Origin: an uncultured virus (IMG/VR IMGVR_UViG_3300034050_000143)
Lineage: Duplodnaviria; Heunggongvirae; Uroviricota; Caudoviricetes; Crassvirales
Direction: 5' to 3' (one strand)
Virus record (IMG/VR): IMGVR_UViG_3300034050_000143
Length of the DNA stretch: 20,000 bases
Each line of letters opens with the position of its first letter. Positions within the stretch are counted from its first letter, which is position 1. Positions 2,265 to 17,839 of this stretch are shown here, piece by piece. Made by a program: the position numbers and the translations under genes. The notes under the pieces were generated by a model. The model was not told the DNA's origin, ran no database searches, and saw only the letters and a program-made list of their open reading frames with translations.

Positions 2265-5200
2265 ATGGAAGACTTATATACTTTACCAGACGGATCAACA
2301 GTTGATATATCAAAATACTCTCAGTTACAGAGAATGCAGTTTTTATTAGACAATGAAGGAGCAAAAAAGTCAAAAGGCGGTGCAAAGAGTGCAGTTGTAA
2401 CGCCAAGAAAAAACAAAGCACTGACAAAAGATACGGATTCAAAATCGGTAAGTGGTACTTCAGCGCCTCAAAAATTTAGATTACCTACTATTGAAGAACT
2501 TCAGAAAAAAGGCGAAGCACCGCCACCATCTGAATCTGCAAGTCCTAGTATAGTAGATGTAAGTAGATTATATAACATGGTTGGTAATACTGGTAATCAA
2601 GTAAACCAACAAAATTTTAAAACTGCTACTACTAAAGGTAGGAAAGAACAAAAAGTTGAAGGTTATTTTACAGCTGGATCAGGCGCTATCGATGACTTAG
2701 TAGAAAGCATCGACAATCCTGGTAACACAAAAAACAAAAGAAGAGATTTAAAATATAGTATAGACACTATTAAGAATAAAATACAATTAACTGATTCTAA
2801 TTTATTGAATCCGTATTTATACTATTCTTCTAATAAGAAGGGCATTGATGATAGTTTTGTAGATAAAAACTATAGTTCTAAAGAGTTACAAGATATAGGT
2901 GTTAATCCAGATGATTTCGATGGTTACTTAAATAAAAAAGGATATAAAGAAGACTTCCTAAAAAAAGAAGCACAAGGTTTATACGAAGGTACTGGTAACG
3001 CTGCATTTTCAAGATATAATATAGGTTTAGCCAAAGAACTTGCTAAAAAGAAAATGCTTAATATGTATATGGAAGATATGCAAGGAAGGGATTTTACTAA
3101 ACAAGATCTTGATCAAGACTTAGAAATAGCTTTTGGTATGCGAGACAAGAAAGAAATAGTACGAAATGAAATATTCAATACTAATGGTATATCAAAATAC
3201 GTAGAAAAAAACTTCCCTATAGTAACTCAAAAGTTAAAAGATAGAGATATTGAAAATAAAAGAATATACGAAGAGTCTAAAAAAGGAGGAACTGATTTCT
3301 TTTCTTGGGACACACTTGGTAAAATGGGTAAATCTGGGTGGAACGCAGTATCTGATAGAACTAAGCAGATTAGTGCTACGGTTTATGACACTTTAGGAAT
3401 GGATACTACCGCTGAAGGTATTAGAGCTTTAGACGAAGAAAATAAATTTATAAGACCAGATGACAGAGGTATTGCCTATGCTTCTGGTAAATCTGTTTCA
3501 TATAAAGGAACAAACTATTTAGTTGATTCTAAAGGAGAAATATATGACACGGATGCAAAGATAAGGGTTACTGATTTATTTGATGAATCTGAGTATAAAA
3601 ACATAGTAGAAACATCTAAGTACGCTCCATCTGATTTCGTATTCAGTACTCAAGGCGCTGCAGTACAAACTTCAGGCGTAATGGCTGATATGCTAATACA
3701 GGCAGCTGTTACTCGTGGAATTGGACAATTTGGCGCTATGGCAAGTGGAGCTAGACTAGCTTTAAATGGAGCTAGACAAACTAGTAGGTTCACATCTATA
3801 TTAAATGATAGTTCTCAATTATTAAAAAGAATACCACTTGATAGAGCTACTGGTTATTCTATGATAGCACAAGGTGCTTTAGGATATTCTCAAGGTTACG
3901 AGGATACATTAAAAGCAGCTAGAGATGCTGGGATAAATGATGAAGAAGCTTTTAAACTTGCTTCTACCAGCGCTCAAAGAATGGCTATTCTATATAGTAC
4001 AACTGGTGCAATCAACCCGCAAACTAAATTAGTAGAAAATGTATTTGGTTCTAAAAATGTAATTAAAAAAGCTATAGATCAATACTTGAAAACAGGTGAA
4101 AAAGGATTTGTAGCTTATATAGATGATATAATTAAAAGTACACCTAGAAACTTAGTTGAGTTCGCTGAAGAAGGTGGTAAAGAAGTTATTCAAGAGAATA
4201 TACAACAGGCAGGTGAATTAGGAGTTAACAGACTTACTAATCAAGAAGCTGGTAAGAAGATAGTTAATGATGTAATGACAGGAGATGATTTCATGAATAC
4301 ATCGATACTTTCTTTTATATCTTCTGGTTTGATTTCTAAAGCTAAAATACCTAGTTTTAGTTCTAATGATAATAATGTAGATAATTTAACTTCATTAAAT
4401 ACTTTAGCTAAAAATAAAAAAGAGTTTGTAAAAATAGTAGATGGATTAGTAGATCAAAAAGTGTTCACATTAGATCAAGTAAAAGCTTTGAAAGACGATG
4501 TGGATATTTATGATAATAATGTAAATAAAATACCTAAATCAATATCTCCAGAAATAGCAATGCCTGTTATGAGGGAGTTAGATAAGGTTACTAAACTTCA
4601 AAATGAAAAAGAATCTGTAGACAAAGCCTTTCACCCTAAGTTAGATGAAAAGATAAATCAAATTAGACAGAATATATTAGATATAGAGTATTCAAATGAT
4701 TTAAAAATAAAAAACAAACAGATATTAAACGCTATAAATAAAGGTGTAGCTAAAGGTATTTCTACTAAAAGTTTTTCTACTACTGAAGAAGTTAATAATT
4801 ACTTAATTAATGAAGTAGGTATACCTGAAAAAGATGTCTCTATGTACAGTTCTCAAGGTGGATTTGCTTTAAGTTCTGCTGCATTAAAAAAATATTCTAA
4901 AGATCCAGATTCTATTCCAGAAAATACTCAATTAATAGTCATTAATGAATCTAAGAGTAGAGACGCAGGTGTAATACAACACGAATTTTTACACGGAGTA
5001 CTTCAGAATACTTTAAAAGAAAATCCTGAAGCACAAAAACTAATAGGTAATGCTTTGGCTAAAGAATTGTTGAAAATAAATGATAACTTAAAGAAAAAAG
5101 GATTAGACGAAAGTGCTTTACCCGTAGAGTATGCAAAAAGATTAGGTGCATATATGGAAAGAAACACTAACGACAAAGCTGAAGCGATTGCAAGGTATGA

Positions 5201-8200
5201 AATAAATATGCGTGAAGCTAGAAACAACCCATCTAAGATGGCAGAAATAAAAGCGAAGCATAATGATTATATGAGTGGATTAGATGGTGTTTTCTGGGAA
5301 GAAGCAATAGTTCTATATTCCGATGCTTTGAGACGTGGTTATGTAACTTATAATGAAAATACATTTACAAAACTTGGAGATACAATAAGAAGAGTTTTAC
5401 AATACCTAGGTATAAAAGATGTAAAATTTAATTCTGGTAAAGATGTTTATAATTTCTTAAAAGATTATAATAATAGCATTGAAACTGGAAATTGGGGTAA
5501 GGCATTGACTAAAATGAGTAATAAAGGCGCTAGTATAGGTATAAAAAGCGATAAAGATGTTACAAAATCAAAACCATCAGCACCACAAAAGAAATTCTCT
5601 TTAAGTGAAAAAAAATCTGCAGATGAAATTAAAAAAGACGTAAATAAAAACTACAATAAAGATACTTTTACACAAAAAATAAATAGTGAAAGAGATCCTT
5701 CTTTATATGACATATTAAAAGAATATGAGTTTATAGTTAAAGGTAAAGCTAAATCACTGGGTTACGCAAACACACCTGACTATAGTGAGTTAGATATGAT
5801 AATGGAAACTCAAATGGCTTTAATTCCTCATATTCGTAACTTTAATAAAGAATTTTTACAAAAAAGAGAAGAATATAAGCAAGAATTAATAAGTAAAGGT
5901 CTTGATCCTGACAGTAAAGAGTTTAAAGACAAAGTACAGACACAAGATGAAAAAGGTTATCAAGGTAAAAAAGGCATCGTAAAAGAAAATGACGACTTAA
6001 ATGCTTGGATAAATTCTCAGTTAGGTAATAAAATGAAGGTTGCACTTAATACAGGTAACGTAACTACTCAAAAATTTACAGAAGATGTAGAAGGTGAAAT
6101 GTTTAAAGAATCTAATATATCTGACGGTTTTGGTGGTGATGAAGGTTATTTAATGGACGAAGGTGAAACTGTCTTTGAAGCACAACAAGACTTTGAACAA
6201 GAGCAAAATGCTTTAGCAGTTTTATTAAGTGATCCTGTATTTAGATTTACAGATGATAAAGGTAATTATATAGACATTGAAACAATACCTTTTGGCGCAC
6301 TATATGTAACAGAAGCTACAGATCCTTCTGTTCCTGCTAATAAGAAATTAAAAACAGAAACTAATCTAGCAAAAATAAAAGAACTTAAAAAAGAGATAAG
6401 TGATTTAAGACGTGGTTTAGAACTAGAATCTAAAAAAGATATAACACCTGAAGAAAAACAAGAACTTAAAAACTTAAAGTCTTTTGATTCTTTTGATCTA
6501 TCTACTGGTAATGTAATAAAAACATTTAAAGCTTTATCTACACAAGACACACCTGCTAAAATCGTTATAGATGATGTTGCTCGTGAAATATTATATTCTC
6601 CAAACATTGAGACTTTAGAGTTCCGTAATTTTAAAGAGAAGTTATCTGATTTGTCTAAGACAATGATGAAAAGAATGACTTTTGAAACAGGTGAAGGACT
6701 TGAATCTTTAATGTATAATGAATGGAAGTTATTATACGATGTTATTAATCACCCTATTGATGCTGTTACTGGGGAATCTAGTTATGCATCTAAGAAATTG
6801 CCTCCTAGATTAAAAGAATTTGATGATAAAGGTAATCTTAAGAAAATAGGTAATATAACTAGAGTTAAGTTCTTACAATCATTTTACGGAATAGAAGATG
6901 CTACTAGAATAATAAATAAGTTTGGTGGAAGTAATGCTGAATCAGAGATTTTACAGTTTGAAGATCCTGAAATGAATGATAAAACAGGTAATAAACTATG
7001 GCCAACCGCTTATTTTGATAGAAGAACAGCACTAAGAGAGTTATTTGGTGACGTAATGGTACTTCAAGAAGCTAGAAGACTAATACGTAACGAGGAATTT
7101 TTATCTAAAGTAGCTGAAAGAAATGTTAACTTATATAACAGTCTTAAAGATGATATTATTAGAGCAGAAGTTCTAAATAATATGGCTAAAGGTAAAAGTG
7201 ATATAGTTAAATTTAGTTTAGCAGAAGAATCAAATGGTAAAATATCTGAATTTTTACAAGGATTAAACATAGGACAACAATGGGTTGTTGCTAGAGACAT
7301 AGATAGAGCTATCTTAAATAGTAGATTATTAGTAGGAACACAACAAGACGTAGTAACTTTTAAAGTTCCTAGTAGATCTAAAATGTCTGATAAATCAACT
7401 GCTTATTTTATAATAAGTAAAGTTGCAGAAGGTTACAATAACTTTGAGTTCATGGTTGATAAGAATTCCAAAGGTCCTTTAACTAAACAGGTGTTAAATG
7501 CTGTTGATATTAAAAACAAAGATATATCTAAAACAAAACAAAATGCAATAGTTAAGTTTAGTCTAGAAGAAACAATGAATGATATAATAGAAGAAAATAC
7601 TGGAGTAAAATCTTCTGAAAAATTCTCTCCTGAAACTGCTAAAAACATAGGTAAAAACATAGGTAAAAATGAATTCTATCTACCACCACAAGATGAGGAT
7701 TTCTTAGGTTTAATATATACACTTGCTTCTGGTAAAGGCGCGATGGGAGAGGCTCAGTTAGATTTCTTTAAAGATAATTTATTAAAACCTTATAGTACTG
7801 CGATGCTTAATTTAATGAAAGCAAGACAGACTATGTATAAAGACTGGAAAGACTTAATAAAGAACAAACATAAAGGTATAACTAAGTTGTTGAAAGAAGA
7901 TTCTGGATATGAAGGTTATACTATAGATCAAGCTGTTAGGGTTTATCTTTGGAAAAATGCTAAATACGATATACCTGGATTAGATTCAAAAGACATGTTT
8001 AATTTGGTTCAATTAGTTAGAACTAATAAAAAACTAAGAGATTTTGCTACAGACGTTTCGTTATTATCTAAACAAGCTAATGGATATATAGAACCAGATA
8101 AGAATTGGGGTTTTGGTAGTGTTGTTGGAGATATAAACACTGTAATATCTAAGTCTAATAGAAAAAAATACTTAGAACAATGGCAGAACAATGTAGATAA

Positions 8201-9596
8201 GATATTCTCTAAAGATAACATGAGTAAGATAGAAGCTGTTTATGGCAGACAATATGCTAGTGCTTTAAGGAATATGTTAGATAGAATGGAAAGTGGTACT
8301 AACAGACAGAAAGGTTCTAATGATGAATTTTTAAACTGGTTAAATGGTGCTACAGCTGATGTAATGTGGTGGAACGTTCGTTCTGCTGCTCTACAAACAT
8401 TAGGAGCTATAAACTATATAAATACTAGTGATAACAATATATTAAAAGCTAGTAAGGCATTTTTAAATATGCCTCAGTTTATAGAAGACTTCATGACTAT
8501 ATGGAGATCAGATTATTCTAAAGATAGAAGATCTGGACTTATGAATGACGTTGCTGAAGCTGAATTTGCTCAAATGATGAACGATCCAAGAAATAAAAGT
8601 CTTGGAGATAAGTTAAAAGCGGCTAACTATTATCTACTTAAAAACGGATTCAATGCTACTAGATTTATGGATAGTTTCGCTATTGCATTAGGTGGTGCTA
8701 GTTTCTATAGAAATAGATTAGATACATATAAAAAACAAGGTCTATCAGATGAAGAAGCTGAAACTAAAACAATGAGTGACTTCTATGATGTATCAGAACA
8801 GTCGCAACAATCAGCAGATGTTTCTAAAATATCTAAAAATCAAGCAAGTACTAGAGGTAGATTGCTATTAGCCTTCTTAAATACTCCTTTTCAATATTCA
8901 AGACTTATAAAGAAATCAGTAATTGATTTAGTTAAAGGAAGAGGAAGTGTTGTAAACAATGTTTCAAAGATAGTATATTATGGTGTAGTTCAAAACGTTA
9001 TGTTTAACATGCTTCAAAATGCTTTATTCACTAAGATATTTGGTGATGATGACGAAGAAGAACTTACTACTGCAGAAATGAGAACTATAAACGGTGCTTT
9101 AGATACAATATTAAGAGGTGCTGGTTTAACAGGAGTATTAATGTCTGTAGCTAAAAATGCTATAGTTAAATGGTATGAAAAAAGTGGTGATCCAAAAGGT
9201 TACGGTGATGTATTGTTAGAACTAGCAAACGTTGCTCCTGCTATAGGAACTAAACTTAGATCAGTAGCTAAAGCATATAAAGCATTTGAATATAATAAAG
9301 ACGAAATAATGTATAAAGGATTTAGTCTTGATAATGAATATGCTATTGAAGCTCTTACTTCTTTAACTACGGCTAGATATAATATACCTTTAGATAGAAT
9401 ATATCAAAAATCACAGAATATTATGGCTGCTTTAGATTCAGAAACAGAGAACTGGCAGAGAGTATTCTTATTGATGGGTTATAGCGCATGGAATTTAGGC
9501 ATGGAAGATAAAGATGAAAAACCAGAGACTAACGCTAGAAGTTTAAAAAAATCTAATCTAACAAGAGGAGGTTTGAAAAAACAAGGTTTAAGATAA
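2265..9596 (+). CDS. Giant internal virion/ejection 'polyvalent' protein (2443 aa) with zincin motif and sigma region-2-like segment
   Basis: HEFLH at aa 906-910 (4980-4994) with downstream EE (aa 1012-1013); KFSL at aa 1110, 1649 and 1764; sigma-r2-like stretch at aa 1149-1261; amphipathic helical C-terminal third resembling large podoviral ejection proteins; last gene of the structural arm. Confidence 0.65.
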   Translation: MEDLYTLPDGSTVDISKYSQLQRMQFLLDNEGAKKSKGGAKSAVVTPRKNKALTKDTDSKSVSGTSAPQKFRLPTIEELQKKGEAPPPSESASPSIVDVSRLYNMVGNTGNQVNQQNFKTATTKGRKEQKVEGYFTAGSGAIDDLVESIDNPGNTKNKRRDLKYSIDTIKNKIQLTDSNLLNPYLYYSSNKKGIDDSFVDKNYSSKELQDIGVNPDDFDGYLNKKGYKEDFLKKEAQGLYEGTGNAAFSRYNIGLAKELAKKKMLNMYMEDMQGRDFTKQDLDQDLEIAFGMRDKKEIVRNEIFNTNGISKYVEKNFPIVTQKLKDRDIENKRIYEESKKGGTDFFSWDTLGKMGKSGWNAVSDRTKQISATVYDTLGMDTTAEGIRALDEENKFIRPDDRGIAYASGKSVSYKGTNYLVDSKGEIYDTDAKIRVTDLFDESEYKNIVETSKYAPSDFVFSTQGAAVQTSGVMADMLIQAAVTRGIGQFGAMASGARLALNGARQTSRFTSILNDSSQLLKRIPLDRATGYSMIAQGALGYSQGYEDTLKAARDAGINDEEAFKLASTSAQRMAILYSTTGAINPQTKLVENVFGSKNVIKKAIDQYLKTGEKGFVAYIDDIIKSTPRNLVEFAEEGGKEVIQENIQQAGELGVNRLTNQEAGKKIVNDVMTGDDFMNTSILSFISSGLISKAKIPSFSSNDNNVDNLTSLNTLAKNKKEFVKIVDGLVDQKVFTLDQVKALKDDVDIYDNNVNKIPKSISPEIAMPVMRELDKVTKLQNEKESVDKAFHPKLDEKINQIRQNILDIEYSNDLKIKNKQILNAINKGVAKGISTKSFSTTEEVNNYLINEVGIPEKDVSMYSSQGGFALSSAALKKYSKDPDSIPENTQLIVINESKSRDAGVIQHEFLHGVLQNTLKENPEAQKLIGNALAKELLKINDNLKKKGLDESALPVEYAKRLGAYMERNTNDKAEAIARYEINMREARNNPSKMAEIKAKHNDYMSGLDGVFWEEAIVLYSDALRRGYVTYNENTFTKLGDTIRRVLQYLGIKDVKFNSGKDVYNFLKDYNNSIETGNWGKALTKMSNKGASIGIKSDKDVTKSKPSAPQKKFSLSEKKSADEIKKDVNKNYNKDTFTQKINSERDPSLYDILKEYEFIVKGKAKSLGYANTPDYSELDMIMETQMALIPHIRNFNKEFLQKREEYKQELISKGLDPDSKEFKDKVQTQDEKGYQGKKGIVKENDDLNAWINSQLGNKMKVALNTGNVTTQKFTEDVEGEMFKESNISDGFGGDEGYLMDEGETVFEAQQDFEQEQNALAVLLSDPVFRFTDDKGNYIDIETIPFGALYVTEATDPSVPANKKLKTETNLAKIKELKKEISDLRRGLELESKKDITPEEKQELKNLKSFDSFDLSTGNVIKTFKALSTQDTPAKIVIDDVAREILYSPNIETLEFRNFKEKLSDLSKTMMKRMTFETGEGLESLMYNEWKLLYDVINHPIDAVTGESSYASKKLPPRLKEFDDKGNLKKIGNITRVKFLQSFYGIEDATRIINKFGGSNAESEILQFEDPEMNDKTGNKLWPTAYFDRRTALRELFGDVMVLQEARRLIRNEEFLSKVAERNVNLYNSLKDDIIRAEVLNNMAKGKSDIVKFSLAEESNGKISEFLQGLNIGQQWVVARDIDRAILNSRLLVGTQQDVVTFKVPSRSKMSDKSTAYFIISKVAEGYNNFEFMVDKNSKGPLTKQVLNAVDIKNKDISKTKQNAIVKFSLEETMNDIIEENTGVKSSEKFSPETAKNIGKNIGKNEFYLPPQDEDFLGLIYTLASGKGAMGEAQLDFFKDNLLKPYSTAMLNLMKARQTMYKDWKDLIKNKHKGITKLLKEDSGYEGYTIDQAVRVYLWKNAKYDIPGLDSKDMFNLVQLVRTNKKLRDFATDVSLLSKQANGYIEPDKNWGFGSVVGDINTVISKSNRKKYLEQWQNNVDKIFSKDNMSKIEAVYGRQYASALRNMLDRMESGTNRQKGSNDEFLNWLNGATADVMWWNVRSAALQTLGAINYINTSDNNILKASKAFLNMPQFIEDFMTIWRSDYSKDRRSGLMNDVAEAEFAQMMNDPRNKSLGDKLKAANYYLLKNGFNATRFMDSFAIALGGASFYRNRLDTYKKQGLSDEEAETKTMSDFYDVSEQSQQSADVSKISKNQASTRGRLLLAFLNTPFQYSRLIKKSVIDLVKGRGSVVNNVSKIVYYGVVQNVMFNMLQNALFTKIFGDDDEEELTTAEMRTINGALDTILRGAGLTGVLMSVAKNAIVKWYEKSGDPKGYGDVLLELANVAPAIGTKLRSVAKAYKAFEYNKDEIMYKGFSLDNEYAIEALTSLTTARYNIPLDRIYQKSQNIMAALDSETENWQRVFLLMGYSAWNLGMEDKDEKPETNARSLKKSNLTRGGLKKQGLR
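7640..7669 (+). repeat. In-frame 12-bp tandem repeat (taaaaacatagg x2.5; KNIG-KNIG-KN)
   Basis: Directly visible: taaaaacatagg taaaaacatagg taaaaa. Confidence 0.85.
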
Positions 9597-9640
9597 TAGA
9601 AACAATATAAGATGAGCAACATACTCAAAGTTTCTATATA

Positions 9641-9681
9641 AGAAAAGGGGATCACAATTAAGTGTATCCCCTTTCTTTATT
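9641..9681. terminator. Bidirectional intrinsic terminator between the convergent arms
   Basis: Hairpin AAAGGGGAT-CAC-aattaa-GTG-t-ATCCCCTTT (9644-9674), A-rich on the left and T-rich on the right, between the stops at 9596 (+) and 9704 (-). Confidence 0.85.
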
Positions 9682-9703
9682 TAGTGTGTATAGCACTTAT
9701 AAG

Positions 9704-10134: not shown

Positions 10135-10283
10135 TTGTCTATAGTAAATATAATATTTATGAATGGTAAATATAACACATGTGTATTGAATGTTTGTTCT
10201 TCATAGGTTCTAATTCCAAGCAGAATACCTGGATATGTGCCAATTGCTAATTCCCAACCTTTTTCATCATTGTTTAACGTCAT
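10131..10283 (-). CDS. Small hypothetical protein (50 aa), not in ORF track
   Basis: Manual translation MTLNNDEKGWELAIGTYPGILLGIRTYEEQTFNTHVLYLPFINIIFTIDK*; fills the gap exactly and its TGA overlaps the ATG at 10134. Confidence 0.7.
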   Translation of the reverse strand: MTLNNDEKGWELAIGTYPGILLGIRTYEEQTFNTHVLYLPFINIIFTIDK

Positions 10284-10725
10284 CTTGTCTTTGTTTTAAT
10301 ATTAATCTAACGGTCTCATCACAGTCTTTCTGCGATTGAGGTTTGTATAGTATTCTAGTGTCATTATTATTTGTCATCCAATCTTTAAACATTTTCCAGC
10401 GTAAAGGAAAAGAATCATTCGCTTTACCTTTTGTTTCTATTATAAAATCCCACCCAGTAAAATCTGGAGTATACTTTATATTGAGAACTTTTTTATTACC
10501 TCTATTCACGAAATCACCTTTACCATTTGATTGCCGTTCATAACAGTTATTACTAAACTGAAAAGCATGTAATAATTCAAAGTTCTCGCCTTCGTATCTA
10601 AAATCTATATTAGCATCTTTTAAAGCTTTATACATATACTTTTCCAAACCAGAAGCGAAGGTAATACCATTATATATTACCTTCTTTGAAACAACTGGTC
10701 CTTTTTTCCTACTTATCCTCTTCAT
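10267..10725 (-). CDS. PD-(D/E)XK endonuclease, T7 endonuclease I / Holliday-junction resolvase-like
   Basis: Motifs FASGLE, FRYE, YTPDF and IIETKG follow the T7 gp3 pattern. Confidence 0.8.
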   Translation of the reverse strand: MKRISRKKGPVVSKKVIYNGITFASGLEKYMYKALKDANIDFRYEGENFELLHAFQFSNNCYERQSNGKGDFVNRGNKKVLNIKYTPDFTGWDFIIETKGKANDSFPLRWKMFKDWMTNNNDTRILYKPQSQKDCDETVRLILKQRQDDVKQ

Positions 10726-11096
10726 TAGTTACGATGACCATACTTTTCTTTTTTAGCGTCTACTAATTCGTAATTAACTTTAATATCACCGATAGAACTA
10801 CTACATAAATTTTCTAAATAACCAAAATCTAAAACTTCAGAATCGTCAAACTCTTTTATTAATGCTTCTTCTGTTAAATCTTGTATTTCTTCTCTACATG
10901 CTTGTATATAAAGAATTGCATCCATTAACTCTTCTTGTACATCGTTTAAGTACTTAGCAAGACCTTTCATCTTTGTTGTACGTTCTTCATGTAATGTAGT
11001 TCCGTATTTAGCAAAACCAATATCTGATCTTGATACAAACTTTTGCACTACTCTTTCTACTACAGGATCTCTAAAATCTATTGATACTTTATTCAT
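10725..11096 (-). CDS. All-alpha NTP-pyrophosphatase-like (MazG/dimeric dUTPase superfamily) protein
   Basis: R-x-x-x-G-x-x-KYG-x-TL followed by an acidic helix QEELMDAILY; adjacent to other nucleotide-metabolism genes. Confidence 0.55.
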   Translation of the reverse strand: MNKVSIDFRDPVVERVVQKFVSRSDIGFAKYGTTLHEERTTKMKGLAKYLNDVQEELMDAILYIQACREEIQDLTEEALIKEFDDSEVLDFGYLENLCSSSIGDIKVNYELVDAKKEKYGHRN

Positions 11097-11938
11097 TATA
11101 ATGTTGTTATTAAAGGTTTATTTTCTTTTACAAAAGTACCATTTACCATCTGACCATGTCTTGATTTAATTACGTCATAAGCTGATACAATACAGTCTTC
11201 AACTTTTAATCCCTCTAAGGCAGCTAGATTTGTCAATACAACCATCATATCGCCTATCGCATCAATAAATTCATCTTTATCATTCTTAAGAATAGATCTA
11301 CTTAATTCACCAGCTTCTTCCATTAGTTTTACAAACTGAGTTTTAGTATCACCATTTCTGTATATGCCACGCTCATCAGCCCATTGTCTAATCAAGTCAT
11401 ATACATTAGGAACTTCAACTTCAACTTCTTCAGGTTGATTTTTATGTTCCATTGCTGGACTTTTCTTACCTAATGATTTACAATACTCATCCATTGCTTT
11501 ATTATAAATAAATGAACGAGCTGGATTGTACATAGATGTTTTAGCGTTTTTAACTATCCAATCGCATAGGTCAGGCGTTAAAAGATATTTACCAAAAGAA
11601 TTATCTAATTGAATACCTAAACTATCCATTAAATTACCCTTTAACTTGTTTAGCGGATAAGGAAATGTAGTTGTTTGTTCTGTTACGTTTAATACCATTC
11701 GATTTAATTTTTTGTTTAATTTATTAGTTATTAATTCTTTGTAAGATTGCCTATCTACTTTATAGCCAAATTTGTTTTGAAGTTCTATCTCTTTATTAGA
11801 GATGTAATCTATACATTCACTTGAATCTAGAACTTCATATTCTTTATAACCATAACCTTGTTGTCTAGTTAATCTTTCCTTAAGATTACATGTAACTCCT
11901 ATTTTTTTACCAAATATATGATATAGATAGTATTTCAT
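11096..11938 (-). CDS. Fusion protein: N-terminal GIY-YIG-like domain, unknown middle domain, C-terminal MazG-like pyrophosphohydrolase
   Basis: C-terminal IRQWADERGI...KLMEEAGEL...DAIGDMMVVL is a clear MazG-type EExxE...DxxxD signature. N-terminal YYLYHI...KIGVTCNLKERL resembles the GIY-YIG Y-x-Y...KIG-x-T...R core (less certain). Confidence 0.75.
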   Translation of the reverse strand: MKYYLYHIFGKKIGVTCNLKERLTRQQGYGYKEYEVLDSSECIDYISNKEIELQNKFGYKVDRQSYKELITNKLNKKLNRMVLNVTEQTTTFPYPLNKLKGNLMDSLGIQLDNSFGKYLLTPDLCDWIVKNAKTSMYNPARSFIYNKAMDEYCKSLGKKSPAMEHKNQPEEVEVEVPNVYDLIRQWADERGIYRNGDTKTQFVKLMEEAGELSRSILKNDKDEFIDAIGDMMVVLTNLAALEGLKVEDCIVSAYDVIKSRHGQMVNGTFVKENKPLITTL

Positions 11939-11941
11939 AAT

Positions 11942-12121
11942 TTATTCTTTTACAATTACTTCTAAGTTAAAAGACTCTAAATCTACAATTAAACCAACAG
12001 GTTCTAAACCGTTTTCTATTAATTTATTAAAAAACTCTTTTAAATTGTTTCTTATAAAGTAACCACCTCTAGCATTATAATCACCGTCTTTCCAAAATTC
12101 TATTGTTTTTTTATCTTCCAT
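11942..12121 (-). CDS. Small hypothetical protein (59 aa), not in ORF track
   Basis: Manual translation MEDKKTIEFWKDGDYNARGGYFIRNNLKEFFNKLIENGLEPVGLIVDLESFNLEVIVKE*; fills the gap and stops 3 nt before the next ATG. Confidence 0.7.
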   Translation of the reverse strand: MEDKKTIEFWKDGDYNARGGYFIRNNLKEFFNKLIENGLEPVGLIVDLESFNLEVIVKE

Positions 12122-12294
12122 AATTGTTTAATATTTTCTACTTCTTGTTTAACTTCATACCAGTATTTTGCTCCTGTTTCTTTTATTAATTGATTAACTG
12201 CTACCAAAGCGCATTGTTGTGCTTTTTCTTCATCCGCTATTATATCTCTATAGAATTTAAAGAATAAATGAAACGCTTGTTCTTTTGGTCTCAT
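12100..12294 (-). CDS. Hypothetical phage protein (64 aa)
   Basis: Start overlaps the stop of the TS-family gene by 4 bp; AQQCALVAV...YWYEVKQEVE helical pattern. Confidence 0.7.
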   Translation of the reverse strand: MRPKEQAFHLFFKFYRDIIADEEKAQQCALVAVNQLIKETGAKYWYEVKQEVENIKQLWKIKKQ

Positions 12295-12929
12295 AATTTG
12301 TCGTTGTATAAATGTAAATTATGAGCAAAATGATAATATGTACCAATCTCTATTTGTAATATATGAGCAATATCAGCTTGTAAGTTTGAAAAACAGAATT
12401 GATCGTTACAGAAACCATACCAAATATCATTAGAACGCATTAGAACGGCCATATTTAATTTACCGTCTAATATTGTAAACTGAATAGCATACGTACAAGG
12501 AGTGTCATTAGAATACGTATCTATCTCTTTGCCATCATATATTGATATAGTTGCTTTTCTAGTGTTTGGATTGTCTTGAAGTAGTTTTATAACTTTACCT
12601 ATTTGGTCGTTTCGTTTCCACTGCCAACCATAATTAGATCTAACGTTTCCATTCTCGTCCATCATGTTTTTCCATATTGGAGCAAACTTTGATATTTCTT
12701 CTGCATTAGGATCACCAGATAAATACCACATCCATTCTCTCATAGCATAGACTGGATTCCATTTCCTACTAAGATCTCTAATAGAATTGTCTGTTGGATT
12801 TTCTATGTAGAAACCTACGTTAAACAAAGCTTTAGTGTCGTCAAAATCAACTCCTTCTAAGATTATTTTGTCTAATAAATATCTGTAGGCTTCATCTGCA
12901 TTTTTAAAACTATTTTTCATACTTGTCAT
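12291..12929 (-). CDS. Thymidylate-synthase-fold enzyme, probably dCMP (hydroxy)methyltransferase rather than ThyA
   Basis: Catalytic DTPCT (C145), MRSNDIWYGFCND with Asp176 at the position of E. coli ThyA Asn177, NVRSNYGW, and HNLHLY. Family call is strong; substrate call is inference. Confidence 0.8.
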   Translation of the reverse strand: MTSMKNSFKNADEAYRYLLDKIILEGVDFDDTKALFNVGFYIENPTDNSIRDLSRKWNPVYAMREWMWYLSGDPNAEEISKFAPIWKNMMDENGNVRSNYGWQWKRNDQIGKVIKLLQDNPNTRKATISIYDGKEIDTYSNDTPCTYAIQFTILDGKLNMAVLMRSNDIWYGFCNDQFCFSNLQADIAHILQIEIGTYYHFAHNLHLYNDKL

Positions 12930-13155
12930 AATAATATGTGTAATACTTGAATATTTGTTTCCATATTTCGTTTTTTTTGTATGTAACTGGACTTATACTT
13001 ATCTTTTTATTCATATCGATACATATAAACCATTCTATTAAAGATTTAGCTTGTGGTGATATATAAATGCCATTATTGACACACCAAACATGTGCTTTTC
13101 TTTCTTTATCAGAAGGAAGATAATCTCCCATGTCTACACCTTTTTTAACCGCCAC
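12910..13155 (-). CDS. Hypothetical protein (81 aa)
   Basis: Abuts the primase-helicase stop and overlaps the TS-family gene start. Confidence 0.7.
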   Translation of the reverse strand: MAVKKGVDMGDYLPSDKERKAHVWCVNNGIYISPQAKSLIEWFICIDMNKKISISPVTYKKNEIWKQIFKYYTYYYDKYEK

Positions 13156-14868
13156 TTAGTCCCAAGGCATTTTATCATCACTAGTGTCTAATGGTTCATG
13201 AGGTATAAAACAACCAGAACGTGGTTCCCATTTAAAATGCGCTTCTGCTCCGTTCTCACCGAGGTTTTGAAACTTTACTTTAAGTACTTTACATTTAACT
13301 GTTTTATCTTCATAATTCCTATGAACTAATAAACCATGATACGAAGCATCATACCATTCACCACCACCTTTTATATTATACATAGTAGGTTCTTCTATTT
13401 TACCTTCTCTATCTTTATACATTTTAGTTGGGTGAGCAACTACGATAACTAATACATCATACTTTTTAGCAAAGACTTCTATCTGTTGTAGATATTCTAA
13501 CGTATAAACATTTACATCTCCAGAAGCATCTGTTGCTCTAACCTTATTAAATGGATCTATAACAAGACATTTAATACCTTTACGTTTAACCAACTCAGCA
13601 CCTTTTCTAAGAACAGACTCTAACGTATAACGTTCCATGTCTATAAAGAAATAACTACTATTAACATGCGTTGCTATTTGATTCCACTTTTCTCCGTGTA
13701 TATCTTCTGCTGAAGGCATATCGCCCCAGGTTTTACGCATTAGTTTATGAGCATGTAAATAAGTAGGTTGATTCTCTGGTGAAGCAAATGCTGTTTTCCA
13801 ACCATACTTACCATTGTAACCTACAACCATTTGGTCAACAAAATCAGACTTACCACTGCTAGGTATACCAGTAACGGTAATAAACTGACCCGTATAAGTA
13901 GAAAATATGCTATCAAAGTTATCGAGTCCGACTTGAAACCCAGGTTTGAAACCATTTCTAACAAAATCCGTGACTTCATCTTCAATGTCACGGAATGTAG
14001 TAACATTTTCCAGCGGAACAGGTTTAGATCTTGATATTCTTTGTGATAATGCTTCTTTTCCATATTTAATTAAGTATTCGTTTGCGTCTTTACAATCATC
14101 GAAAGTTGCAATATAACAAGTTTCTGATCCTAGTCGTCTAACTAGTTCTGTCTGTAAGGCTTGCCCAGCAGCGTCTGAATCAACTGCAATAATGATTTTT
14201 GATTTGTCTTCAAAGTAATCAATACAATTATCTAAGTACTCGAGATTGTTTGTGCCTAAGGTTGCACCATTAGGAACAGATATTGCATTAGTAATCCCTG
14301 CTTCGTGTAATGCTAATACGTCCATTTCGCCTTCAACAATAACACAATATTCAAAACCTACAATGCTGTTAATATTATAGAATACTTTTTCAGCTCCTTT
14401 GAATAATTTAAAGTGTTTATGCCCGTCTCTGTATTTTACATTGATAAGTTGATCGCCAATAAAATAATTAAAGTGTATAGCATTTTCTGTTTTACCAGTT
14501 TGAGGCATAAACTCTGGCCCTTCTGTAACTTGTAAATCTGTTAATGTTTGTTTTGATATTCCACGATCCGCAAACCAGTCAGCCACTTTTGAACTAGGTG
14601 GTAATACCGTAATTGCTGTTGGCCTTGTATATACTTTTTCACTTGCACCTTTACGTTGATAGGTATGTAATTGAAAAGTCTTGTTGCAGTTATGGCAAGT
14701 ACCTATGCCCCGCTCCCAATCATAAGATGCACACTTTGCTTTTTCATTCTTAGGTTTTCTATCAGAAGAACACATAGGACAAACACCTTGCGTTTTACCT
14801 TCTTCTAGACCATATTGATTGAAAGTATCAATCAAGAATCCATTGATCTCTGTATTATTTACTTGCAT
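13156..14868 (-). CDS. DNA primase-helicase (T7 gp4/Twinkle-like)
   Basis: Zn-binding CPMC...CHNC, TOPRIM VIVEGEMD and DSD, Walker A TGIPSSGKS, Walker B LVIDP, SF4 motif VVAHP. Confidence 0.95.
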   Translation of the reverse strand: MQVNNTEINGFLIDTFNQYGLEEGKTQGVCPMCSSDRKPKNEKAKCASYDWERGIGTCHNCNKTFQLHTYQRKGASEKVYTRPTAITVLPPSSKVADWFADRGISKQTLTDLQVTEGPEFMPQTGKTENAIHFNYFIGDQLINVKYRDGHKHFKLFKGAEKVFYNINSIVGFEYCVIVEGEMDVLALHEAGITNAISVPNGATLGTNNLEYLDNCIDYFEDKSKIIIAVDSDAAGQALQTELVRRLGSETCYIATFDDCKDANEYLIKYGKEALSQRISRSKPVPLENVTTFRDIEDEVTDFVRNGFKPGFQVGLDNFDSIFSTYTGQFITVTGIPSSGKSDFVDQMVVGYNGKYGWKTAFASPENQPTYLHAHKLMRKTWGDMPSAEDIHGEKWNQIATHVNSSYFFIDMERYTLESVLRKGAELVKRKGIKCLVIDPFNKVRATDASGDVNVYTLEYLQQIEVFAKKYDVLVIVVAHPTKMYKDREGKIEEPTMYNIKGGGEWYDASYHGLLVHRNYEDKTVKCKVLKVKFQNLGENGAEAHFKWEPRSGCFIPHEPLDTSDDKMPWD

Positions 14869-17050: not shown

Positions 17051-17056
17051 TTTAAC

Positions 17057-17839
17057 TTACATAAAGTCAAGCACTTGCGATGATTCTACATTCACTACTA
17101 ATTTACTTATTGCTAATTTTTTTAACTCAGAAATTCTAACATAAGCACTAGCACCTTTAAAGTCTAATATATCTGCTATTGATATAGCTGAATGTCTATC
17201 ACAGTCTAAACCATAACTTAATCTTAATACTTCTGATTCATTATGAGTTAAATGTTTTTTAAATATACTTAACAAATAAGAATTTAATAAATCTATATTA
17301 TACTCTTTAGATTTATCTTCGAAAATAGCACCGGCATAACTAGTTTCTCCATCAAAGAAATTGTCATCAGAACTATCAAAATCCTCATCTAAACTTTTAA
17401 ATATACTATTAAAGAACATTTCAACCATTTTTTCGTTGTCTGGATTCTTACGTATCTCATTTAATTTATGTTCAGGAATACGTATTGCTCCTCTATTAAT
17501 GTCTATTGCGCGTCTAATTGAACCCTTTATTCGTTTTGACAGAAACGATTTCAATGTATTTTCTTGATTGTCAGATTCATTTATTCTGTCCCAATCTATG
17601 TTGTCTATAGCTAGAATTAAGGCTATGCTACCTTCTTGTAACATGTCTGTTATATCCATTATTCCTGAAGCTTGGTCTGCGGTTGAAAACTTTCTAGCTA
17701 TATTTTCAACTAAAGGCATAAACACAATAATTAATTCTTTTTTACTGTATTCATCATAAGATTTATTTTCTATGTTAGATAAACATTCTTTTAAATCTTG
17801 TTTGTACCTAAGATAATTATCTATATTATACTTTTTCAT
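17057..17839 (-). CDS. Phage-encoded RNA polymerase sigma70-family factor
   Basis: Region 2 (PLVENIARKF...DMLQEGSIALILAIDN), region 2.4-3 (IRRAIDINRGAIRIPEHK) and region 4 (LTHNESEVLRLSYGL...IADIL...VRISELKKLAISKL). Confidence 0.92.
   Translation of the reverse strand: MKKYNIDNYLRYKQDLKECLSNIENKSYDEYSKKELIIVFMPLVENIARKFSTADQASGIMDITDMLQEGSIALILAIDNIDWDRINESDNQENTLKSFLSKRIKGSIRRAIDINRGAIRIPEHKLNEIRKNPDNEKMVEMFFNSIFKSLDEDFDSSDDNFFDGETSYAGAIFEDKSKEYNIDLLNSYLLSIFKKHLTHNESEVLRLSYGLDCDRHSAISIADILDFKGASAYVRISELKKLAISKLVVNVESSQVLDFM

What the first reader, a model, noticed from the sequence alone, without database searches (positions are those of the whole stretch)
12291..12929. The 'thymidylate synthase' has the dCMP-specifying Asp: probable cytosine-modifying enzyme
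Seen: MRSNDIWYGFCND, with Asp176 (codon 12404-12402) eleven residues after the Arg of RSxD; also PCT instead of PCH, and GNVRSNYGW. Established: the equivalent residue is Asn177 in E. coli ThyA (dUMP) and Asp179 in T4 gp42 dCMP hydroxymethylase, and it governs U versus C preference. The motifs follow gp42 as I recall it (INSNYGW, CT, MRSND..GF.ND) better than ThyA (QRSxD..GxPFN). Inference: the phage makes 5-hydroxymethyl- or 5-methyl-dCMP and carries modified cytosine. Automated pipelines would probably label it thyA.
Basis: partly seen in the sequence, partly recalled or inferred. Interest (0 to 1): 0.78.

Follow-up and report, generated by a model that had tools for sequence, protein, structure and literature searches.

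The report
Phage dCMP hydroxymethylase mislabelled thymidylate synthase
A short phage gene that pipelines call thymidylate synthase carries every active-site residue that marks the T4 enzyme making 5-hydroxymethyl-dCMP, so this aquatic phage probably builds modified cytosine; this is a known kind of enzyme in a new host group.

Summary
ORF 12291..12929 (-) encodes a 212-aa thymidylate-synthase-fold protein (Pfam PF00303, E 4.8e-27).

- **Diagnostic residues.** Asp176 aligns with E. coli Asn177 and T4 gp42 Asp179. At five published diagnostic positions the protein equals T4 dCMP hydroxymethylase: Asp three residues before the catalytic Cys, Thr after it, Ser-x-Tyr, retained Asp169 and Asp177.
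- **How it differs from other known enzymes.** It differs from E. coli ThyA, from RB69 5-hydroxy-dCMP synthase (Asn at 169) and from the SPO1 and ViI-like dUMP hydroxymethylases. The MilA ribose-specificity sites carry the deoxy-type residues Arg124 and Ser166.
- **Conservation.** All these residues are kept in 81 of 81 family members.
- **Context.** A MazG-like pyrophosphatase follows the gene on the same strand in 78 of 78 loci with at least 400 nt of downstream sequence. It is a dCTPase candidate.
- **Gaps.** No dNMP kinase, DNA polymerase or glycosyltransferase was recognised in this phage or in one complete relative. hmC in virion DNA therefore remains an inference.

Verdict: a probable dCMP 5-hydroxymethylase, a new member of a known kind, of moderate interest.

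The parts
12291..12929 (-). 212-aa thymidylate-synthase-fold ORF; probable dCMP 5-hydroxymethylase (stop codon included)
   Evidence: ORF. Pfam PF00303 E 4.8e-27. AlphaFold2 model pLDDT 90.4; best fold match MilA, TM 0.91. Five-site signature identical to T4 gp42.
12402..12404 (-). Asp176 codon (gat), equivalent to E. coli ThyA Asn177, T4 gp42 Asp179 and MilA Asp186; the cytosine-versus-uracil determinant
   Evidence: D in 81 of 81 family members and in 136 of 137 nearest 50%-cluster representatives.
12495..12506 (-). Asp142-Thr143-Pro144-Cys145. Cys145 is the catalytic nucleophile. Asp142, at Cys-3 (the E. coli Leu143 position, T4 Asp145), is the water-activating residue of hydroxymethylases.
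   Evidence: Sequence. Both are invariant in 81 of 81. Role taken from passages of PMC6400193 and section 24 of PMC13326640.
12492..12494 (-). Thr146, at the E. coli His147 position (Thr149 in T4 gp42)
   Evidence: Position 147 is the second top discriminating site in MetaGPA (PMC8670742).
12630..12638 (-). Ser98-Asn99-Tyr100, the Ser-x-Tyr motif (T4 Ser94-Asn95-Tyr96)
   Evidence: Signature role from PMC6400193.
12426..12437 (-). Arg165-Ser166-Asn167-Asp168 (E. coli R166-S167-C168-D169). Asp168 is retained, whereas 5hodCMP synthases have Asn here. Ser166 is the deoxyribose-type residue, where MilA has Ala176.
   Evidence: PMC13326640 section 28. PMC5175136 passages.
11096..11938 (-). 280-aa three-domain protein with a C-terminal MazG-like NTP pyrophosphohydrolase domain (residues about 174-260); candidate dCTPase supplying dCMP (substrate inferred, not shown)
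   Evidence: Pfam MazG 28.0 bits (cut-off 22) and PRA-PH 26.5 bits (cut-off 21.3). phrog_1992 E 1.3e-35. VIA Z 9.5 to MazG 1vmg. Found downstream on the same strand in 78 of 78 loci.

Best explanation
The ORF encodes a folate-dependent deoxycytidylate 5-hydroxymethylase of the thymidylate-synthase fold, acting as T4 gp42 does.

Proposed catalytic steps (inferred from the T4 mechanism):
- Cys145 attacks C6 of dCMP.
- Asp176 binds and protonates N3 of cytosine, and so selects C over U.
- Glu65 opens methylene-tetrahydrofolate.
- Water held by Ser98 and Tyr100 removes the C5 proton.
- Asp142, three residues before the Cys, activates a water that adds to the exocyclic methylene. This gives 5-hydroxymethyl-dCMP. 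The hydride transfer that would give a methyl group does not occur.

The protein is a minimal form that ends four residues after the His-x-Tyr ribose-binding motif. The closing C-terminal tail that ThyA needs for hydride transfer is absent.

Proposed pathway (inferred, not shown): the conserved downstream MazG-like pyrophosphatase converts dCTP to dCMP. That both feeds the enzyme and lowers the dCTP pool. Host kinases and the host replisome, recruited by the phage primase-helicase, then put hmC into phage DNA.
For: - **Fold and family.** PF00303 E 4.8e-27. The AF2 model has pLDDT 90.4. Foldseek's best hit is the cytosine hydroxymethylase MilA (TMq 0.91, rmsd 1.7 A, 31% identity), ahead of thymidylate synthases at about 0.76-0.81. 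MilA is also the best PDB sequence hit, at 7e-23.
- **Five-site signature.** The positions are Cys-3, Cys+1, Tyr-2, E. coli 169 and E. coli 177.
  - Window: D,T,S,D,D, identical to T4 gp42.
  - E. coli ThyA: L,H,P,D,N.
  - RB69 gp48 (5hodCMP synthase): E,T,T,N,D.
  - SPO1 gp29 and a ViI-like dUMP hydroxymethylase: D,N,A/G,D, with the Asn displaced by one residue.
- **Published meaning of these sites.**
  - 177 sets C versus U; 147 is the second discriminator (PMC8670742).
  - Asp/Glu at Cys-3 plus Ser/Thr-x-Tyr is the hydroxymethylation signature; T4 D145N and S94N made no product and Y96F none (PMC6400193).
  - D169N marks 5hodCMP synthases (PMC13326640 section 28).
- **Deoxyribose specificity.** The MilA sites Lys133 and Ala176 are Arg124 and Ser166 here.
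- **Other catalytic residues present.** Glu65 (E58), Arg124, Arg165, His206 and Tyr208, plus the hydrophobic folate-site equivalents Ile85, Met89 and Tyr171.
- **Conservation.** All signature residues are kept in 81 of 81 family members.
- **An experimentally anchored relative.** Enterococcus phage VPE25 has a homologue of 37-38% identity with the same signature, next to a beta-glucosyltransferase gene. It is the only thymidylate-synthase annotation in the 12.6-kb stretch I fetched; I did not search the whole record. Its DNA resists bisulfite conversion (PMC4999554).
- **A fusion.** P0199 joins an Asp-type homologue (34% identity) to a TET-associated glycosyltransferase domain.
- **Context.** A MazG-like gene lies downstream on the same strand in 78 of 78 loci with at least 400 nt of downstream sequence. 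The PRA-PH/MazG domain co-occurs with TS homologues in the MetaGPA analysis, where such co-occurrences are reported as often specific to cytosine-modified contigs (PMC8670742).
- **No second thymidylate route.** The three complete relatives each have a single PF00303 match, no ThyX and no dCMP deaminase.
- **Not a canonical ThyA by NCBI's models.** NCBIfam thymidylate-synthase equivalog models score 40-82 bits against cut-offs of 108-427.
Against: - No biochemistry and no virion DNA data exist for this phage.
- Overall identity does not discriminate: 26.8% to T4 gp42, 27.2% to E. coli ThyA, 28.5% to SPO1 gp29 and 33.0% to the ViI-like dUMP hydroxymethylase. The case rests on active-site residues.
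- The tree puts the window on the T4 gp42 side, away from the dUMP hydroxymethylases and RB69 gp48. No branch that holds the window reaches SH-aLRT 95, and several reference rows sit on long branches.
- No dNMP kinase, DNA polymerase, glycosyltransferase, or homologue of T4 gp1, gp56 or beta-GT was found.
  - The own 53.9 kb was scanned.
  - The early region of the complete relative G002 was scanned.
  - tblastn gave E of 0.49 or worse throughout.
  - In T4 the phage kinase is needed to phosphorylate hm-dCMP (T4 record note).
- The MazG substrate is unknown. It shows no sequence similarity to T4 gp56 (E 0.53).
- The protein lacks the loop that holds E. coli Arg21 / T4 Lys28, and it lacks T4 Arg220.
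- C-terminal truncations of MilA were insoluble (PMC5175136).
- The flavin-dependent dCMP monooxygenase 9iqc is also a good fold match (TMq 0.87).
Confidence: 0.72

Rival explanations
1. It is a flavin-dependent 5-hydroxy-dCMP synthase like RB69 gp48, DLP3 gp80 or the phage HY126 enzyme. It would hydroxylate C5 of dCMP with O2 and would not transfer a one-carbon unit.
For: It has Asp at the 177 position and an acidic residue at Cys-3, as those enzymes do (PMC13326640 section 24). The solved monooxygenase 9iqc is a good fold match (TMq 0.87, TMt 0.79). It too has a short C-terminal tail: RB69 gp48 has 12 residues after the motif.
Against: The diagnostic D169N change reported for every tested 5hodCMP synthase is absent. 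Asp168 is kept in 81 of 81 family members and in 137 of 137 nearest representatives (PMC13326640 section 28). Identity is 18% to 9iqc and 22% to RB69 gp48. RB69 has Thr-x-Tyr and His-x-Phe where the window has Ser-x-Tyr and His-x-Tyr. No arabinose or other sugar-nucleotide genes were found nearby.
Confidence: 0.07
2. It is a dCMP methyltransferase making 5-methyl-dCMP, as the N177D or N229D mutants of thymidylate synthase do.
For: Asp at position 177 alone converts thymidylate synthase into a dCMP methylase (Liu and Santi 1992 and Hardy and Nalivaika 1992, as cited in PMC8670742).
Against: Methyl transfer needs hydride transfer from the folate in a closed, water-excluding site. Here the water-excluding Leu143 is replaced by Asp142 and the closing C-terminal tail is missing. 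Both features are those of hydroxymethylases (PMC6400193; PMC13326640).
Confidence: 0.05
3. It acts on uracil nucleotides, either as a thymidylate synthase as annotated or as a dUMP hydroxymethylase like SPO1 gp29 or the ViI-like enzymes.
For: Pipelines call it thymidylate synthase. Overall identity is slightly higher to the ViI-like dUMP hydroxymethylase (33.0%) than to T4 gp42 (26.8%). The phage has no other thymidylate synthase.
Against: Asn177 is replaced by Asp in 81 of 81 members. His147 and Leu143 of ThyA are absent. The dUMP hydroxymethylases keep an Asn in this loop and have Asn after the catalytic Cys, which the window does not. NCBIfam thymidylate-synthase equivalog scores are far below their cut-offs. 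The D179N mutant of T4 gp42 loses about 3600-fold in kcat (PMC6400193).
Confidence: 0.05
4. It hydroxymethylates a cytosine nucleotide that is not destined for DNA: CMP, as MilA and BcmA do, or dCMP as pool manipulation only. The virion DNA would be unmodified.
For: MilA is the closest solved relative by both sequence and fold. No phage dNMP kinase, polymerase or hmC-decorating enzyme was recognised.
Against: The two MilA ribose-specificity residues, Lys133 and Ala176, are Arg124 and Ser166 here, the deoxy-type pair. The MilA A176S/K133R double mutant lost all CMP activity. The gene sits in the replication module between the primase-helicase and a MazG-like gene, and that arrangement is conserved. 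No nucleoside-antibiotic genes are present.
Confidence: 0.08

Closest known systems
T4 gp42 deoxycytidylate 5-hydroxymethylase (dCH; PDB 1b5d, 1b49, 6a9a)
   Same: Same fold. Identical residues at all five diagnostic active-site positions (Cys-3 Asp, Cys+1 Thr, Ser-x-Tyr, Asp171/168, Asp179/176). The catalytic Cys, Glu60/65, Arg123/124, Ser169/166 and His-x-Tyr also match. There is no ThyA-type closing C-terminal tail.
   Different: Only 26.8% identity. 212 aa against 246 aa, with 4 residues against 28 after His-x-Tyr. It lacks the loop with T4 Lys28, and it lacks Arg220 and the T4 insertion before the last strand. The Foldseek TM to T4 dCH is only 0.73. T4's partners (gp1 kinase, gp56 dCTPase, glucosyltransferases, own polymerase) have no detectable homologues here.
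MilA, CMP 5-hydroxymethylase of mildiomycin biosynthesis (PDB 5jnh, 5b6d)
   Same: It is the best solved match by sequence (E 7e-23) and by fold (TMq 0.91, rmsd 1.7 A, 31% identity). It is cytosine-specific through the same Asp (MilA Asp186) and has Asp at Cys-3.
   Different: MilA's ribose-selecting Lys133 and Ala176 are Arg124 and Ser166 here. MilA has an extra five-helix C-terminal domain (316-342 aa) that the window protein lacks entirely. MilA is bacterial secondary metabolism, not a phage replication module.
Short TS homologue of Bacteroides phages BF503P2 / BF486P2 (GenBank product 'deoxycytidylate 5-hydroxymethyltransferase', 226 aa)
   Same: It is the closest homologue in a cultured phage, at 45-46% identity. 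It has the same short form (17-residue tail) and the same signature, and it falls in the same clade in the tree.
   Different: Those phages carry a second, longer Asp-type TS homologue and a dUTPase-like gene nearby. Their function is an annotation only. I saw no experimental data.
TS homologue of Enterococcus phages VPE25 / VFW (281 aa)
   Same: 37-38% identity and the same five-site signature. The DNA of these phages resists bisulfite conversion, so cytosine is modified (PMC4999554).
   Different: It has a 75-residue C-terminal tail. It is flanked by a dUTPase-like gene and a beta-glucosyltransferase gene, neither of which was found here.
E. coli ThyA (canonical thymidylate synthase)
   Same: Same fold and the same catalytic Cys, Glu58, Arg166, Ser167, Asp169, His207 and Tyr209.
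   Different: Asn177 is Asp, Leu143 is Asp and His147 is Thr. The last 51 residues, including the closing tail, are absent. NCBIfam equivalog cut-offs are missed by a wide margin.

Membership tests
Thymidylate synthase / pyrimidine hydroxymethylase superfamily (Pfam PF00303) | Profile match above the curated cut-off | tested here: met
   95.2 bits against a cut-off of 24.3, E 4.8e-27, residues 58-211.
Thymidylate synthase / pyrimidine hydroxymethylase superfamily (Pfam PF00303) | TS fold with the catalytic Cys, the Glu58 equivalent, the Arg166-Ser167 phosphate site and the His-x-Tyr ribose site | tested here: met
   The model has pLDDT 90.4 and TM 0.76-0.91 to solved family members. Cys145, Glu65, Arg165, Ser166, His206 and Tyr208 are each present in 81 of 81 members.
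T4-type dCMP 5-hydroxymethylase | Asp at the position of E. coli Asn177 (T4 Asp179): cytosine specificity | tested here: met
   Asp176 is aligned and is present in 81 of 81 members.
T4-type dCMP 5-hydroxymethylase | Asp or Glu three residues before the catalytic Cys (T4 Asp145) | tested here: met
   Asp142 is present in 81 of 81 members. The rule comes from PMC6400193 and PMC13326640.
T4-type dCMP 5-hydroxymethylase | Ser or Thr two residues before the conserved Tyr (T4 Ser94-x-Tyr96) | tested here: met
   Ser98-Asn99-Tyr100 is present in 81 of 81 members.
T4-type dCMP 5-hydroxymethylase | Deoxyribose-type residues (Arg123' and Ser169 in T4) | tested here: met
   Arg124 and Ser166.
T4-type dCMP 5-hydroxymethylase | Converts dCMP plus methylene-THF to 5-hydroxymethyl-dCMP | not testable with these tools
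   This needs an enzyme assay.
T4-type dCMP 5-hydroxymethylase | Groups with gp42 in a phylogeny | tested here: inconclusive
   The window lies on the gp42 side of the tree, but no branch holding it reaches SH-aLRT 95, and gp42 sits on a long branch.
Canonical thymidylate synthase ThyA | Asn177, Leu143, His147 and the C-terminal closing tail | tested here: not met
   The window has Asp, Asp and Thr at these positions, and its tail is 4 residues against 55.
Canonical thymidylate synthase ThyA | NCBIfam equivalog score above the cut-off | tested here: not met
   The best score is 82.2 bits against a cut-off of 327. All seven models fall below their cut-offs.
5-hydroxy-dCMP synthase (RB69 gp48 type) | Asn at the position of E. 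coli Asp169 | tested here: not met
   Asp168 is present in 81 of 81 members, whereas RB69 gp48 has Asn in the same column.
5-hydroxy-dCMP synthase (RB69 gp48 type) | Bound flavin and O2-dependent hydroxylation | not testable with these tools
   This needs purified protein.
dUMP hydroxymethylase (SPO1 gp29, ViI-like) | Asn in the 177 loop, and Asn after the catalytic Cys in the two references used | tested here: not met
   The window has Asp176 and Thr146. The references have Asn at both sites.
MilA-type CMP hydroxymethylase | Lys133 and Ala176 ribose-selecting pair, and the C-terminal five-helix domain | tested here: not met
   The window has Arg124 and Ser166, and the protein ends at the equivalent of MilA residue ~222.
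MazG-like NTP pyrophosphohydrolase (the neighbour at 11096..11938) | Pfam match above the cut-off and the all-alpha MazG fold | tested here: met
   PF03819 scores 28.0 bits (cut-off 22) and PF01503 scores 26.5 bits (cut-off 21.3). VIA Z is 9.5, rmsd 2.6 A over 81 residues, to 1vmg.
MazG-like NTP pyrophosphohydrolase (the neighbour at 11096..11938) | dCTP as substrate | not testable with these tools
   This is inferred from context only. There is no similarity to T4 gp56. Mammalian dCTPase DCTPP1 appears among the weak fold matches.

The most novel reading that the evidence does not exclude
A stripped-down cytosine-replacement module made of two phage genes. The first is a minimal 212-aa dCMP hydroxymethylase. 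The second is a conserved three-domain protein. Its MazG domain would act as the dCTPase. Its N-terminal GIY-YIG/T5orf172-like domain would attack unmodified cytosine DNA, in the way T4 endonuclease II does. The module would work with no phage dNMP kinase, no phage DNA polymerase and no glycosyltransferase, so host kinases and the host replisome would make and incorporate hm-dCTP. If this is right, plain (undecorated) hmC genomes would be common in a large clade of aquatic Bacteroidota phages. Pattern scanning found 295 relatives in IMG/VR.
Probability: 0.17. Interest if true: 0.62.

Novelty: new member of a known kind. Interest (0 to 1): 0.4.

Why it matters
If the assignment is right, a large group of uncultured aquatic phages carries hydroxymethylcytosine or a derivative in its DNA. 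The group comprises 295 confirmed relatives in IMG/VR, and near-identical sequence was found in 11 lake-water runs.

- **Sequencing and restriction.** Such DNA behaves differently in restriction digests, in bisulfite, enzymatic-methylation and nanopore analyses, and towards host restriction and type IV systems.
- **Annotation.** The 'thymidylate synthase' label hides a DNA-modification pathway. A five-residue rule separates thymidylate synthase, dUMP hydroxymethylase, dCMP hydroxymethylase and 5-hydroxy-dCMP synthase, and it could be applied in bulk.
- **An open question.** The missing phage dNMP kinase and polymerase offer a way to ask whether host enzymes alone can carry hm-dCMP into DNA.

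Tried and rejected
- **Split gene.** I asked whether the 64-aa ORF overlapping the stop codon (12100..12294) supplies the missing C-terminal part in trans. I rejected this. tblastn finds it in only 6 of 80 related loci, and next to the TS gene in only 3. In most loci the MazG-like gene follows directly.
- **MazG domain as a T4 gp56 homologue.** BLASTP gives E 0.53, so no similarity is detectable. The PDB sequence search gives only one MazG hit, 1vmg at 5.2e-05.
- **Pathway partners.**
  - tblastn with T4 gp1, gp56 and beta-GT, RB69 ORF045, and VPE25 beta-GT and dUTPase gave nothing better than E 0.49. The targets were the 53.9-kb composite of this phage and the complete relative G002.
  - A Walker-A scan found the primase-helicase, a MoxR-type ATPase in G002, and some poorly placed motifs.
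  - Pfam and PHROG scans of the ORFs found no kinase, polymerase or glycosyltransferase.
  - G002 ORFs between 23 and 55 kb were not scanned themselves; their counterparts in G001 were. The ORFs beyond 55 kb were not scanned either.
- **Near-identical cultured phage.** Megablast of 5 kb against 50,697 phage records found no match.
- **The 123-aa ORF at 10725..11096.** I suspected a second MazG-like protein. It has no Pfam or NCBIfam hit, no PDB hit better than E 0.41, and the protein atlas names no family.
- **N-terminal domains of the MazG protein.** The Foldseek and VIA lists were filled by the MazG domain, so these parts remain untested. The atlas gives only a lead to T5orf172/MUG113, carried by 15% and 48% of the members of two clusters.
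- **Literature.**
  - A search for 'dCMP hydroxymethylase' together with flavobacterial phage names returned 38 papers holding at least two terms. None of the 12 listed contained 'dCMP hydroxymethylase'.
  - A search with 'crAss', 'hydroxymethylase', 'modified cytosine' and 'thymidylate synthase' returned none containing 'crAss' among the 8 listed.
  - These two searches are my only basis for saying I found no report of hmC in such phages.
- **Sequencing runs.** All 24 holders are kept as assembled contigs of lake-water metagenomes. Contigs cannot show base modification, so I did not lay reads.
Full report
**1. The observation**

The minus strand carries an ORF at 12291..12929, ATG start, 212 aa. 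It translates to the sequence printed.
- MRSNDIWYGFCND is residues 164-176.
- Asp176 is codon 12404-12402 (gat), eleven residues after Arg165.
- Pro144-Cys145-Thr146 is present.
- GNVRSNYGW is residues 94-102.

The protein matches Pfam PF00303 (thymidylate synthase) at E 4.8e-27, 95.2 bits against a cut-off of 24.3. It also matches four PHROG families, all called 'thymidylate synthase'.

**2. Where it sits**

- The window is part of a phage genome of about 30% G+C.
- Window 1-14478 is 100% identical to the last 14.5 kb of an unnamed 48-kb virus record, G001. That gives 53.9 kb of this phage.
- A 66.5-kb relative, G002, is collinear at about 70-80% DNA identity. CheckV rates it complete.
- The gene lies in a minus-strand replication module. 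Reading down the minus strand, the module holds:
  - a sigma-like factor;
  - Erf;
  - a PDDEXK exonuclease;
  - a primase-helicase (13156..14868);
  - a conserved 81-aa ORF;
  - the TS homologue;
  - two small ORFs;
  - a MazG-like protein (11096..11938);
  - a 123-aa ORF;
  - a resolvase-like protein.
- The nearest cultured-phage proteins belong to Cellulophaga, Tenacibaculum and Flavobacterium phages; the primase-helicase reaches 42% identity at best. A Bacteroidota host is therefore an inference.
- Near-identical DNA occurs in lake-water metagenomes. 11 of the 24 listed runs hold half or more of the sampled words.

**3. What the residues say**

I fetched reference proteins from public records:
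- T4 gp42 (dCMP hydroxymethylase);
- E. coli ThyA;
- RB69 gp48 (shown to make 5-hydroxy-dCMP);
- SPO1 gp29;
- a ViI-like enzyme (annotated deoxyuridylate hydroxymethyltransferase);
- the homologues of Enterococcus phage VPE25 and Bacteroides phage BF503P2.

I aligned them with the window protein and its relatives.

Asp176 falls in the column of E. coli residue 177 (Asn) and T4 residue 179 (Asp). HMMER's pairwise alignments with E. coli TS and MilA agree.

The literature gives four further diagnostic positions:
- Positions 177 and 147 (E. coli numbering) were the two most discriminating positions between TS homologues on cytosine-modified and on unmodified metagenomic contigs (passages of PMC8670742).
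- An Asp or Glu three residues before the catalytic Cys, with a Ser or Thr two residues before the conserved Tyr, is the proposed signature of hydroxymethylation. T4 D145N and S94N made no product and Y96F none (passages of PMC6400193; section 24 of PMC13326640).
- Asn in place of E. coli Asp169 marks the flavin-dependent 5-hydroxy-dCMP synthases (section 28 of PMC13326640).

Residues at Cys-3, Cys+1, Tyr-2, E. coli 169 and E. coli 177:

| Protein | Cys-3 | Cys+1 | Tyr-2 | 169 | 177 |
|---|---|---|---|---|---|
| Window | D | T | S | D | D |
| T4 gp42 | D | T | S | D | D |
| VPE25 homologue | D | T | S | D | D |
| BF503P2, both homologues | D | T | S | D | D |
| E. coli ThyA | L | H | P | D | N |
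| RB69 gp48 | E | T | T | N | D |
| SPO1 gp29 | D | N | A | D | Asn, one residue later |
| ViI-like enzyme | D | N | G | D | Asn, one residue later |

The window therefore equals the dCMP hydroxymethylase at every diagnostic position, and it differs from each other functional class at one or more positions.

The two residues that make MilA prefer CMP over dCMP are Lys133 and Ala176. Here they are Arg124 and Ser166, the deoxy-type pair (alignment; passages of PMC5175136).

Glu65, Arg124, Arg165, His206 and Tyr208 are present, as are the hydrophobic folate-site equivalents Ile85, Met89 and Tyr171.

**4. Conservation**

- Pattern scanning of IMG/VR matched 298 stretches. 295 of them encode a relative, and the best 80 were kept.
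- In the window plus these 80, Asp176, Asp142, Cys145, Thr146, Asp168, Ser98 and Tyr100 are each present in 81 of 81.
- A full HMMER scan of 1.84 billion cluster representatives found 8953 proteins at E up to 0.001 and 72 at E up to 1e-30.
- Of the 150 best representatives, 137 covered all the sites:
  - 136 of 137 have Asp at 177 and 136 of 137 have Asp at Cys-3.
  - 137 of 137 keep Asp169.
  - 126 of 137 have Thr after the Cys.
  - 74 have Ser and 60 have Gly at Tyr-2.
- The whole sequence neighbourhood is thus of the cytosine type.
- 27 of the 137 are short forms like this one, with at most 25 residues after His-x-Tyr.

**5. Structure**

- An AlphaFold2 model built on 42 family members has mean pLDDT 90.4 and pTM 0.88.
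- Foldseek against the PDB ranks as follows:

| Match | TMq | Other figures |
|---|---|---|
| MilA | 0.91 | rmsd 1.7 A, 31% identity |
| Flavin-dependent dCMP monooxygenase 9iqc | 0.87 | 18% identity |
| Thymidylate synthases | about 0.76-0.81 | |
| T4 dCH | 0.73 | |

- The protein ends four residues after His-x-Tyr. T4 gp42 has 28 residues there, RB69 gp48 has 12 and E. coli ThyA has 55.
- ThyA's tail closes the site for hydride transfer, and T4 dCH works without such a tail (PMC6400193; PMC5175136).
- Short forms are not unprecedented. The NCBIfam model for the methanogen-type thymidylate synthase is 201 positions long and ends at the same place.

**6. Phylogeny**

I built a quick IQ-TREE of 76 rows: the window, 8 references and 67 representatives of at least 195 aa. 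The 67 were the first 45 such hits plus every fourth one after that. Shorter fragments were dropped.

- The window falls in a clade of short forms together with the Bacteroides phage enzyme.
- That clade lies inside a 39-row group that also holds T4 gp42.
- It is apart from the group holding the two dUMP hydroxymethylases and RB69 gp48.
- Support is weak. No branch holding the window reaches SH-aLRT 95, and several references sit on long branches.
- Overall identity does not discriminate either: 26.8% to gp42, 27.2% to ThyA, 28.5% to SPO1 gp29 and 33.0% to the ViI-like enzyme.

The functional call therefore rests on the active-site residues, not on the tree.

**7. Context**

- **MazG neighbour.** A homologue of the 280-aa MazG-like protein lies downstream on the same strand in 78 of the 78 loci that have at least 400 nt after the TS gene. 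In 66 of them the match starts within 60 nt.
  - The C-terminal domain is MazG/PRA-PH by Pfam and by fold: VIA Z 9.5 to 1vmg, with mammalian dCTPase among the weaker Foldseek rows.
  - In the MetaGPA study the PRA-PH domain co-occurred with TS homologues, and such co-occurrences were reported as often specific to modified contigs.
  - I infer a dCTPase role like that of T4 gp56, but there is no sequence similarity to gp56. The substrate is unknown.
- **No second thymidylate route.** Three complete relatives each have one PF00303 match, no ThyX and no dCMP deaminase.
- **VPE25.** Its homologue carries the same signature, sits next to a beta-glucosyltransferase gene, and is the only thymidylate-synthase annotation in the 12.6-kb stretch I fetched. 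I did not search the whole record. VPE25 DNA resists bisulfite conversion (PMC4999554).
- **A fusion.** One representative, P0199 (34% identity, Asp type), is fused to a TET-associated glycosyltransferase domain.

**8. What is missing**

I found no dNMP kinase, DNA polymerase, glycosyltransferase, or homologue of T4 gp1, gp56 or beta-GT. This holds for the 53.9 kb of this phage and for the scanned parts of the complete relative.

In T4 the phage kinase gp1 converts hm-dCMP to the diphosphate (T4 record note). Here host kinases and the host replisome would have to do the work, or an unrecognised protein does it. This is the main reason the step from 'makes hm-dCMP' to 'virion DNA carries hmC' stays an inference.

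**9. Comparison and verdict**

- The protein works like, and by every testable criterion belongs with, the dCMP 5-hydroxymethylases.
- It fails the tests for canonical ThyA, including NCBIfam equivalog cut-offs (82 bits against 327). It also fails the tests for 5-hydroxy-dCMP synthase, dUMP hydroxymethylase and MilA-type CMP hydroxymethylase.
- The specificity rule is decades old. Asp-type TS homologues on modified environmental contigs were described in 2021. A 46%-identical Bacteroides phage protein already carries the dCMP hydroxymethyltransferase label in GenBank.
- This is therefore a new member of a known kind.
- The less ordinary features are the minimal length, the strictly conserved three-domain MazG partner, and the absence of a phage kinase and polymerase.
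- My two literature searches found no report of hmC in flavobacterial or crAss-like phages. That is a limited basis.

Confidence is 0.72 that the enzyme is a dCMP 5-hydroxymethylase, and lower, about 0.5-0.6, that the virion DNA is modified.

Noticed in passing
window 2265..9596 (+): A giant 2443-aa ORF with no Pfam or PHROG hit. The upstream part of the same phage (G001) has two proteins matching the Crassvirus muzzle protein families PF25731 and PF25729. This suggests a crAss-like podovirus architecture. The giant ORF might be a virion-packaged protein such as an RNA polymerase, but I did not test that.
   Followed up: no
window 11096..11938 (-), residues 1-160 of the MazG-like protein: The MazG domain is preceded by two further folded domains (model: 1-73 and 81-159). 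They are conserved, since 72 of 78 homologous matches start within the first 25 residues. The start of the protein reads like a GIY-YIG motif by eye. The protein atlas's nearest clusters partly carry T5orf172/MUG113 (15% and 48% of members). This is a lead only; no fold match was obtained.
   Followed up: partly
L007 (G001) 11461-13005 and 13005-13265; a further GroES-like ORF at 17023-17631: The phage encodes its own GroEL (PF00118, E 1.4e-53) and GroES (PF00166, E 5.2e-12), plus a second GroES-like protein matching phrog_13932.
   Followed up: no
L091 (G002) 126-1994 and 1996-2559; absent between window about 9925 and 10133: The complete relative G002 has a 622-aa ribonucleotide reductase (phrog_367, E 6.5e-128) and a 187-aa ORF inserted between the resolvase-like gene and the giant ORF. 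The window lacks both.
   Followed up: partly
L002 (Bacteroides phage BF503P2) 3127-3933 and 6007-6687: This cultured phage carries two Asp-type TS homologues (268 and 226 aa). Both are annotated dCMP hydroxymethyltransferase and a dUTPase-like gene lies between them. The longer one has Leu in place of the Glu58 equivalent.
   Followed up: partly
protein P0199 (616 aa, metagenomic representative): A natural fusion of a TET-associated glycosyltransferase domain (PF20691, E 2.2e-12, residues 33-236) with an Asp-type TS homologue (residues 354-583).
   Followed up: no
window 12910..13155 (-) and 10725..11096 (-): An 81-aa ORF overlaps the start of the TS gene by 20 nt. A 123-aa ORF follows the MazG-like gene. 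tblastn finds both in many of the 80 related loci. Neither has any family assignment.
   Followed up: partly
window 17057..17839 (-): A 260-aa ORF with a weak sigma-70 region 2 match (PF04542, 20.6 bits, below the cut-off of 24) and phrog_351 'RNA polymerase sigma factor' at E 4.8e-18.
   Followed up: no
whole phage (window plus G001) and the relative G002: No DNA polymerase was recognised by Pfam or PHROGs in any scanned ORF, although a primase-helicase, Erf, an exonuclease and a resolvase-like protein are present. G002 also has a MoxR-type AAA ATPase and a weak, below-cut-off VWA-like match (PF05762, 17.3 bits against 26.4) in its early region.
   Followed up: partly
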